DNA from: the human T2T-CHM13v2.0 reference genome, Homo sapiens
DNA: 64,000 nucleotides
Strand: one strand, 5' to 3'
Assembly (NCBI RefSeq): GCF_009914755.1
Contig: NC_060941.1
Part shown: in pieces, positions 56,100 to 56,944 of the stretch
Layout: each line of letters begins with the position of its first letter
Position numbering within the stretch: the first letter of the stretch is position 1
The notes under the pieces: model-generated
What the model was told of the DNA's origin: nothing
What the model saw: only the letters and a program-made list of their open reading frames with translations
Databases searched by the model: none
Position numbers and translations under genes: made by a program

Positions 56100-56944
56100 T
56101 TACTTAAAACCAGGAAACATGCCTTTATTTTTGGAAGGAGATGGTTTAAAGTTCTTTATTTCTATTTCATGAGTTTTTCCCAGTTCCAGTTCATTTATCC
56201 AAGTTGTTTTTACATTACCATCAATGTCATCAATTTTACTTTCTTCAATATGCAGAATTCCATTCAACTTTGTATCTATGCAATCCTCAGCTTTCACTTC
56301 TCTGGCTGAATCTACTTCTTTTATAGTTCTAATTTCAAAAAGGTCTTTAGCTAAAATGCAATCTGAATTGTTAGCCAATCTATTTCCTCTATCAGTTTCA
56401 GCTAGGTCATTTTTTTCTTCATCTGTATCTTCAGGATCGTAAAGTTCAGGTGTAAAATAGATAGATTCATCTTCTGCTTCTGTTTCAAAATCTCTATTTG
56501 AAGTGGACTGTTTATCTTCTTCACTTACTAGAGACAATTCAATGTCTGGATCCAGGGCTTCTTCAGAACAGAGCGGATGTTCAGAATGATTTTTTCTAGT
56601 AAGGGTGGCATCAATCTTTAATGATGAAATAATGGTTTCTGATTGAGGGCATGATCCAAACGATGTGTTTACTGTCAGATTTGAGGATTCACATTTATCA
56701 GTGAAGGGCAAAACAGTTTTACTTTCCATCTTCTCTGTTTTGAAACGGGGAGGACTAGAGGCACTATTCTCTGATGACCCGAGCTCAGGTGTTGCCTTCG
56801 GTATTTTACCAGTAAAATACTGTCCCAAAGAATTAAAGCTTGACCAGCTAACTCTCTTTGTTTGTTTGTTGAAAGTTGGGCTTGTGGATCTGGAAATCAC
56901 AATTTTTTCTGCTTTCCCTGCTTCTTCCAGGAATACTGGATCAT
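56100..56944 (-). CDS. BRIP1: BRIP1/FANCJ last coding exon (exon 20, residues 969-1249)
   Basis: Acceptor tattcttag|AT at 56946-56945. Translates (N)[26 protein letters not shown]...IYFTPELYD...[12 protein letters not shown]. 845 nt. S990 codon 56880-56882, T1133 codon 56451-56453, counting gives a 1249 aa end. Confidence 0.98.

What the first reader, a model, noticed from the sequence alone, without database searches (positions are those of the whole stretch)
56100..56126. Cryptic GC donor 7 codons before the BRIP1 stop is in frame with the first fossil exon
Seen: ...AAT AAA G|gc atg t matches the GC-AG donor consensus AG|GCAAGT at all but one base. It is phase 1, exactly what 55380-55524 (GT GGT TCT CTT...) needs. 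Exon 19 also ends in phase 1. Established: the terminal K1249 is an acetylation site affecting repair and checkpoint choice. Inference: GMFPGFK* may be the intron read-through end of the short form, while splicing here would keep S990/T1133, drop K1249 and today end after ~15 new residues.
Basis: partly seen in the sequence, partly recalled or inferred. Interest (0 to 1): 0.72.

Follow-up and report, generated by a model that had tools for sequence, protein, structure and literature searches.

The report
Lost spliced tail of BRIP1 helicase
Gene models of tree shrew, bats and hedgehog continue the DNA-repair helicase BRIP1 through a splice site just before the human stop codon into downstream exons that are broken in humans, so the last human residues, including the regulatory lysine K1249, are likely the unspliced short ending of a once longer protein.

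Summary
The GC site is real (AAG|gcatgt, phase 1, after c.3727), but the motif alone is within chance (13% of shuffles). Comparative data support it: of 82 mammalian BRIP1 entries, 5 (tree shrew, three bat species) leave the human sequence exactly after KNK-G and continue with peptides that map to downstream window DNA; a hedgehog model does likewise from a slightly shorter exon end. Models join 52287-52208 (exon A), then about 45774 (B) or 36938 (C). Exon A's peptide is 24-25 of 27 identical among tree shrew and two bats, above exon 20 (57-67%), whereas human differs at 8 of 27 and has a stop. Best reading: an old alternative donor feeding a longer C-terminus that has decayed in humans; GMFPGFK is likely the read-through end. 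K1249 is arginine in 8 of 20 read-through entries and absent from 55 entries that end differently. Not shown: use in human RNA, GT in other species, any intact long protein, any non-placental orthologue. Prediction: synonymous c.3729C>T would make the site a canonical donor.

The parts
56117..56126 (-). GC 5' splice-site motif AAG|gcatgt; last exonic base 56123 (c.3727), +2 C is the wobble base of Gly1243 (c.3729)
   Evidence: sequence; junction position in other mammals' models
56100..56122 (-). read-through tail encoding the rest of G1243 to K1249 and TAA; likely intron start in the spliced form
   Evidence: read-through tails in 20 of 82 entries
56123..56944 (-). shared coding part of BRIP1 exon 20, with S990 (codon at 56882) and T1133 (codon at 56453)
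   Evidence: annotation given with the finding
52208..52287 (-). exon A (80 nt, aag|...|gtacaa, phase 1 to 0), inside the annotated 3' UTR; joined to exon 20 in tree shrew, two bat and hedgehog models; human has an in-frame TAG at codon 18 of 27
   Evidence: tblastn E 6e-9 to 4e-5; single copy in genome
45696..45774 (-). exon B (about 79 nt), follows exon A in the tree shrew model, whose peptide has a C-x4-Y-C-x2-C-G motif; human has a TAG and lacks two of the three cysteines; donor at 45696 and the exact acceptor (45774 or 45773) are inferred
   Evidence: tblastn E 7e-7
36701..36938 (-). start of exon C; acceptor ttag| at 36938 is used by the Myotis (from exon 20) and Pipistrellus kuhlii (from exon A) models; human needs two frame changes and has a stop relative to the 77-residue Myotis tail
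   Evidence: tblastn E 4e-19 in three frames
58640..58969 (-). BRIP1 exon 19, ends in phase 1 (AAA|gtatga)
   Evidence: annotation

Best explanation
The site at 56123 lies exactly where gene models of tree shrew and bats splice BRIP1 exon 20 onto downstream exons, so it is likely an old alternative 5' splice site that once gave a longer C-terminus and is now largely vestigial in humans. Mechanism: exon 20 is a composite last exon. If the donor is ignored, translation runs seven codons to TAA and the transcript ends in the long 3' UTR (shown: the annotated human form). If it is used, exon 20 joins exon A in frame (modelled in four species), then exon B and/or exon C (each modelled in one or two species); A plus B is 159 nt, so exon 20-A-B-C and exon 20-C share one frame (arithmetic shown; the full chain is inferred and seen in no model). 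In the human lineage the extension decayed: stop in A, stop and loss of cysteines in B, frame changes in C, and a GC rather than GT donor (human state shown; a GT ancestor is inferred). Residual human use would join 56123 to 52287, keep S990 and T1133, drop K1249, end after 17 new residues and remove 3.8 kb of 3' UTR (predicted).
For: Junction falls on the same residue in 5 of 82 entries from 4 species in two superorders, and their tails map to window DNA 3.8, 10 and 19 kb downstream, at AG acceptors for A and C. A hedgehog model joins the same exon A in the same frame from an exon end 9 residues shorter. The models differ downstream of A (A-B, A-C, A read-through, direct to C), which argues against simple copying of one model (inference). 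Exon A peptide identity is 24/27, 24/27 and 25/27 among Tupaia, P. kuhlii and Phyllostomus against 57-67% for exon 20 of the same pairs (Fisher P 0.007, 0.001, 0.003; pairs not independent), while human differs from the majority at 8/27 including a stop. In all 20 read-through entries the residue after Gly is Met (10) or Val (10), compatible with a kept purine at +3 (codons inferred). Donor flanks are in the top 0.5% of window GT sites. GC donors are weaker, enriched in alternative introns, and a near-identical AAG/GCATGC cryptic site is used in MTHFR (PMC3167603, passages).
Against: All support is from predicted models whose RNA evidence I could not see. Only 4 of 82 representatives carry exon A, and they were visible because their frame is open (ascertainment). 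Each extended model stops within about 30-77 new residues and none has the full chain. 55 of 82 entries end before or without the KNK motif, so many placental lineages cannot translate through the donor. Hedgehog differs from the majority at 8/27, as much as human, and its pairs are not above exon 20 (P 0.17-0.75). No non-placental orthologue of the extension was found, though searches were capped at 2000 aa. No domain was assigned (model pLDDT 38). All 11 ape and New World monkey entries are read-through. The manatee tail after KNK-G did not map to the window.
Confidence: 0.6

Rival explanations
1. The donor and downstream splice sites are real and old, but the downstream exons are not a functional coding extension: they are an alternative, mostly untranslated 3' end (UTR remodelling or decay-coupled control), conserved at the nucleotide level.
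For: Every extended model stops soon and in a different place; protein identity in exon A cannot separate coding from nucleotide constraint; single-step changes there fall more often on codon position 2 than 1 (10 against 5), which is not what selection on this frame should give; no domain or distant homologue.
Against: Exon A is open in the donor's frame in 4 of 4 non-human models and more conserved than the neighbouring coding exon in three pairs; A plus B is frame-neutral; the Myotis tail is open for 77 residues in AT-rich DNA.
Confidence: 0.25
2. One reading: the donor's ancestral partner is 55524-55380, which would then lead into exon A one base out of the models' frame; present-day models skip it.
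For: Phases chain without a break (1 to 2, 2 to 1) with one stop per exon; 7 of 15 single-step changes in A are synonymous in that shifted frame against 3 of 15 in the third frame.
Against: That excess is what neutrality gives (12 of 26 over A and B, P 0.29); 55 equally good phase-compatible segments exist in 3.8 kb; none of 82 tails matches it; the bridging exon the shifted chain needs (51930-51872) overlaps the sequence just after the annotated 3' end and has 20 competitors.
Confidence: 0.07
3. A chance cryptic site: the extended models are annotation noise from rare read-through splicing and nothing was ever selected.
For: Motif alone occurs in 13% of shuffles; few models use it; predicted models can be wrong.
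Against: The same donor position and the same two acceptors recur across Scandentia, Chiroptera and (for exon A) Eulipotyphla, and exon A is unusually conserved.
Confidence: 0.08

Closest known systems
Composite terminal exon / intronic-polyadenylation-type alternative last exon (recalled class; e.g. secreted versus membrane IgM)
   Same: An internal 5' splice site in the last coding exon chooses between a short read-through tail and spliced downstream exons.
   Different: Here the spliced branch is broken in humans and the read-through form is the reference protein; use in human RNA was not tested.
GC-AG alternative introns and cryptic GC donors (PMC3167603, passages)
   Same: GC at +1/+2 with strong flanks; one base from the MTHFR cryptic site AAG/GCATGC listed there.
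   Different: No human junction is documented in what I searched; a GT-to-GC history is inferred, not shown.
Reference human BRIP1/FANCJ with acetylated K1249 (PMC3390368, PMC7162537, passages)
   Same: Same gene and residues; PMC3390368 already notes that K1249 is not conserved in chicken or C. elegans.
   Different: K1249 lies in the read-through tail downstream of a modelled donor; it is Arg in 8 of 20 read-through entries and missing from entries that end earlier, including Old World monkeys.
Unitary pseudogene / lineage-specific loss of coding exons (recalled class)
   Same: Single-copy downstream exons with stops and frame changes in human but open frames in some other mammals.
   Different: They are modelled as part of BRIP1 rather than as a separate gene, and no intact orthologue was found to prove loss.

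Membership tests
Functional GC-AG 5' splice site | GC dinucleotide with near-consensus flanks | tested here: met
   AAG|gcatgt, one mismatch to AG|GCAAGT; flanks top 0.5% (matrix recalled)
Functional GC-AG 5' splice site | Junction reads in human RNA | not testable with these tools
   no RNA-seq access; all 11 ape and New World monkey entries are read-through
Conserved alternative donor | Orthologous position used as an exon end in other species | tested here: met
   5 of 82 entries, 4 species, by protein models only
Conserved alternative donor | GT at the orthologous position in other species | not testable with these tools
   +2 is the Gly wobble base; no vertebrate DNA other than human is held
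Fossil coding exon (55524-55380) | Homology to a modelled or intact exon elsewhere | tested here: not met
   no match among 82 tails, Pfam or the human genome; it was not itself used as a query of the large protein database
Fossil coding exon (55524-55380) | Splice sites better than background | tested here: not met
   acceptor matched or beaten by 39.5% of AGs, donor by 28.7% of GTs
Fossil coding exon (exon A, 52287-52208) | Orthologue spliced in frame and open in other species, disabled in human | tested here: met
   4 species open, human TAG
Fossil coding exon (exon A, 52287-52208) | Selection on the protein (dN/dS below 1) | tested here: inconclusive
   peptide identity above exon 20 in 3 of 10 pairs, but no DNA for a codon test; position bias 10:5 points the other way
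Zinc ribbon / rubredoxin-like domain in the extension | Two cysteine knuckles and a family match above cut-off | tested here: not met
   one CxxC in the tree shrew tail; PF16919 E 0.17, 12.3 bits against cut-off 28.5; model pLDDT 38
Separate downstream gene | Own promoter and start codon | not tested
   no transcription data; models attach the exons to BRIP1

The most novel reading that the evidence does not exclude
The boreoeutherian ancestor made a second, longer BRIP1/FANCJ isoform (exon 20-A-B-C, about 130 extra residues with a cysteine-rich, possibly metal-binding segment) that is still under selection in bats and tree shrews and was switched off in primates by a GT-to-GC change and stops; the human K1249 acetylation switch was built on the intron-derived tail, and the synonymous variant c.3729C>T would reopen the old donor and delete that switch.
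Probability: 0.3. Interest if true: 0.75.

Novelty: new variant of a known kind. Interest (0 to 1): 0.52.

Why it matters
BRIP1 is a cancer-predisposition and Fanconi anaemia gene whose very last residue is a studied regulatory site. If that tail is a read-through of an old donor, then (1) the K1249 switch is a recent, mainly simian feature, which limits what other mammals can say about it; (2) a lost isoform exists whose remains can be studied in bats and tree shrews; (3) variants around c.3727-3733, above all the silent c.3729C>T, are predicted to change splicing and should not be read as neutral without an RNA test.

Tried and rejected
Pentraxin-like reading of 55524-55380 (my first impression, recalled): no Pfam family at E<=10, no paralogue; dropped. 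A shifted-frame chain through 55524-55380, A, 51930-51872, B and 44082-44001 (148 codons, 3 stops): frame test not significant and hand-picked exons have many competitors; dropped. Long fossil ORF at 36960-34600: single copy, but no Pfam hit in three frames, no human paralogue in two frames (strict first look; one weak E 0.63 match), no PDB match, and none of 2300 candidates of 880-2800 aa scored E<=1 in one frame; unsupported. Profile of four extension tails: only its own four members among 51 candidates; four hits in the representative library are repeat proteins and spurious. Atlas: no usable hit for the Tupaia or Myotis tails. Yippee/Mis18-like resemblance (recalled): no Pfam match. AlphaFold model of the tail unusable (pLDDT 38), so no fold search. 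snoRNA reading of the 137-nt duplicate: no Rfam match, z-scores -0.6 to 0.6. Literature: BRIP1 with 'unitary pseudogene' or 'PhyloCSF' gave 0 papers; splicing, last-exon, variant and bat/tree shrew searches gave listings with nothing on this junction, judged by titles and abstract starts only; the synteny hit PMC8127814 names no gene between tbx4 and brip1 in the passages read. A targeted RNA-seq paper on BRIP1 splicing that I recalled was not held. Supplements were not read and could list such junctions.

Full report
Observation. The minus strand reads AAT AAA G|gc atg t with the last exonic G at 56123, in phase 1, seven codons before the TAA of BRIP1. Counting back from K1249, the G is c.3727 and the +2 C is the wobble base of Gly1243. 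The segment 55524-55380 is 145 nt, bounded by AG and GT, in frame with the donor, and would add 15 residues before a stop. Exon 19 also ends in phase 1. S990 and T1133 lie in exon 20 upstream of the donor. By itself it is weak: 13.3% of 1000 shuffles of exon 20 hold such a motif and the window's minus strand has 12, although the flanks rank in the top 0.5% of the window's GT sites under a recalled, approximate matrix.

Other mammals. A search with the exon-20 peptide returned 82 entries of 491-2000 aa, all those with a name from placental mammals. Of these, 20 end in a read-through tail like the human one, 7 continue differently after the KNK motif, and 55 end before or without it. Five of the seven (Tupaia chinensis, Pipistrellus kuhlii, Phyllostomus discolor, two Myotis lucifugus entries) leave the human sequence exactly after KNK-G, the break a phase-1 donor at 56123 would make. 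The manatee tail did not map to the window and the sloth entry is a low-quality model; I count neither. A hedgehog entry, classed among the 55, joins the same downstream peptide from an exon end nine residues shorter. These are predicted models; I could not see their RNA support.

The partner exon is not the one proposed. tblastn of the last 110 residues of all 82 entries against window 1-56099 gave strong hits at three places only: 52291-52208 (four species), 45792-45673 (Tupaia) and 36927-36701 (Myotis); none at 55524-55380. Back-translation scans place the starts at AG acceptors 52287 and 36938, the latter for both Myotis and P. kuhlii, and at 45774 for exon B, one base upstream of the human AG. 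For 55524-55380, 39.5% of AGs and 28.7% of GTs score as well, and 55 phase-compatible segments, overlapping ones and itself included, lie between 56080 and 52320. It has no Pfam match or paralogue. I tested the rescue that it bridges the donor to exon A in a shifted frame: 7 of 15 changes in A and 5 of 11 in B are synonymous in that chain's frames, P 0.29 against a neutral model. It is not excluded, but nothing favours it.

Was the extension functional? Exon A's 27 residues are 24, 24 and 25 identical among Tupaia, P. kuhlii and Phyllostomus, while exon 20 of the same pairs is 57-67% identical (Fisher P 0.007, 0.001, 0.003; not independent). The other 7 of 10 pairs, all with human or hedgehog, show no excess; each of these two differs from the majority at 8 of 27, and human has a TAG. 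A (80 nt) plus B (79 nt, donor inferred) is 159 nt, so exon 20-A-B-C and the Myotis exon 20-C junction share a frame. In human, B has a stop and lacks two of three cysteines and C needs two frame changes. Against function: only 4 of 82 representatives carry A, open frames are what made them visible, every extended model stops early and in a different place, changes in A fall 10 to 5 on codon position 2 over 1, and no domain, fold or distant homologue emerged. could not see proteins over 2000 aa, and no marsupial or bird was recovered, so the direction of change is not rooted.

Mechanism. Shown: a near-consensus GC site in the last coding exon; downstream exons that other mammals' models join in frame; disabling changes in the human copies. 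Inferred: exon 20 is a composite last exon whose donor competes with read-through; both forms existed in the boreoeutherian ancestor, since read-through tails and spliced tails both occur in Euarchontoglires and Laurasiatheria; the human +2 C weakened a former GT. Established: GC donors are weaker than GT, enriched in alternative introns, and AAG/GCATGC is a disease-activated cryptic site in MTHFR (PMC3167603, passages). Predicted: residual human splicing to 52287 would keep S990 and T1133, drop K1249, stop after 17 new residues and excise 3.8 kb of UTR; c.3729C>T would create AAG|gtatgt.

K1249. It is acetylated and affects repair choice, checkpoint maintenance and CtIP binding (PMC3390368; PMC7162537; passages only). 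The first paper notes that it is absent in chicken and worm. Here the last residue is Lys in 12 of 20 read-through entries (11 simian, one panda) and Arg in 8, and the five named Old World monkey entries end before the donor. So the site is mainly simian, which fits a tail of recent regulatory use.

Known or new. Ten literature searches showed nothing on this donor or on downstream BRIP1 exons, judged from listings; subscription papers and supplements were not searched, and the other 21 RefSeq transcripts of the gene were not shown to me. The mechanism class is known, so I rate it a new variant of a known kind. Verdict: observation confirmed, interpretation right about the donor and wrong about its partner; best explanation 0.6; interest 0.52.

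Noticed in passing
window 55032-55168 and 54369-54505: A 137-nt element present twice in the BRIP1 3' UTR (86% identical, 663 nt apart) and nowhere else in the genome; on the minus strand each copy holds a 40-nt segment between a pyrimidine-rich AG and GTAATT. All three frames have a stop shared by both copies; no Rfam match, no unusual folding.
   Followed up: partly
window 56097-56106, minus strand: The stop codon itself sits in a donor-like context (AA|gtaata); where the last residue is Arg it could read AG|gtaa, a second possible donor in phase 2. Inferred from proteins only.
   Followed up: no
P0014-P0018 (baboon, mangabey, macaque entries): Old World monkey BRIP1 entries leave the human frame about 40 residues before the end and lack both the KNK motif and K1249.
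   Followed up: partly
window 34600-36960, minus strand: A 2.3-kb single-copy stretch following the exon C acceptor; one frame has only 10 stops between 35960 and 34925, about half as many as the other two, but no homologue was found. Could be the old terminal exon or UTR.
   Followed up: partly
window 44001-44082, minus strand: A very strong acceptor at 44082 (top 0.1% of window AGs) opening an 82-nt AG...GT segment between exons B and C; no model supports it.
   Followed up: partly
window 46121-50826 and 36979-39699: L1-like and Alu insertions lie between exons A and B and directly upstream of the exon C acceptor, and an Alu (55649-56012) starts about 110 nt after the donor (masking table; translations; family names recalled).
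   Followed up: no
window 51944-51963: The annotated 3' end follows an ATTAAA at 51963, 245 nt downstream of exon A's donor, so a 56123>52287 transcript could use the normal poly(A) site.
   Followed up: no
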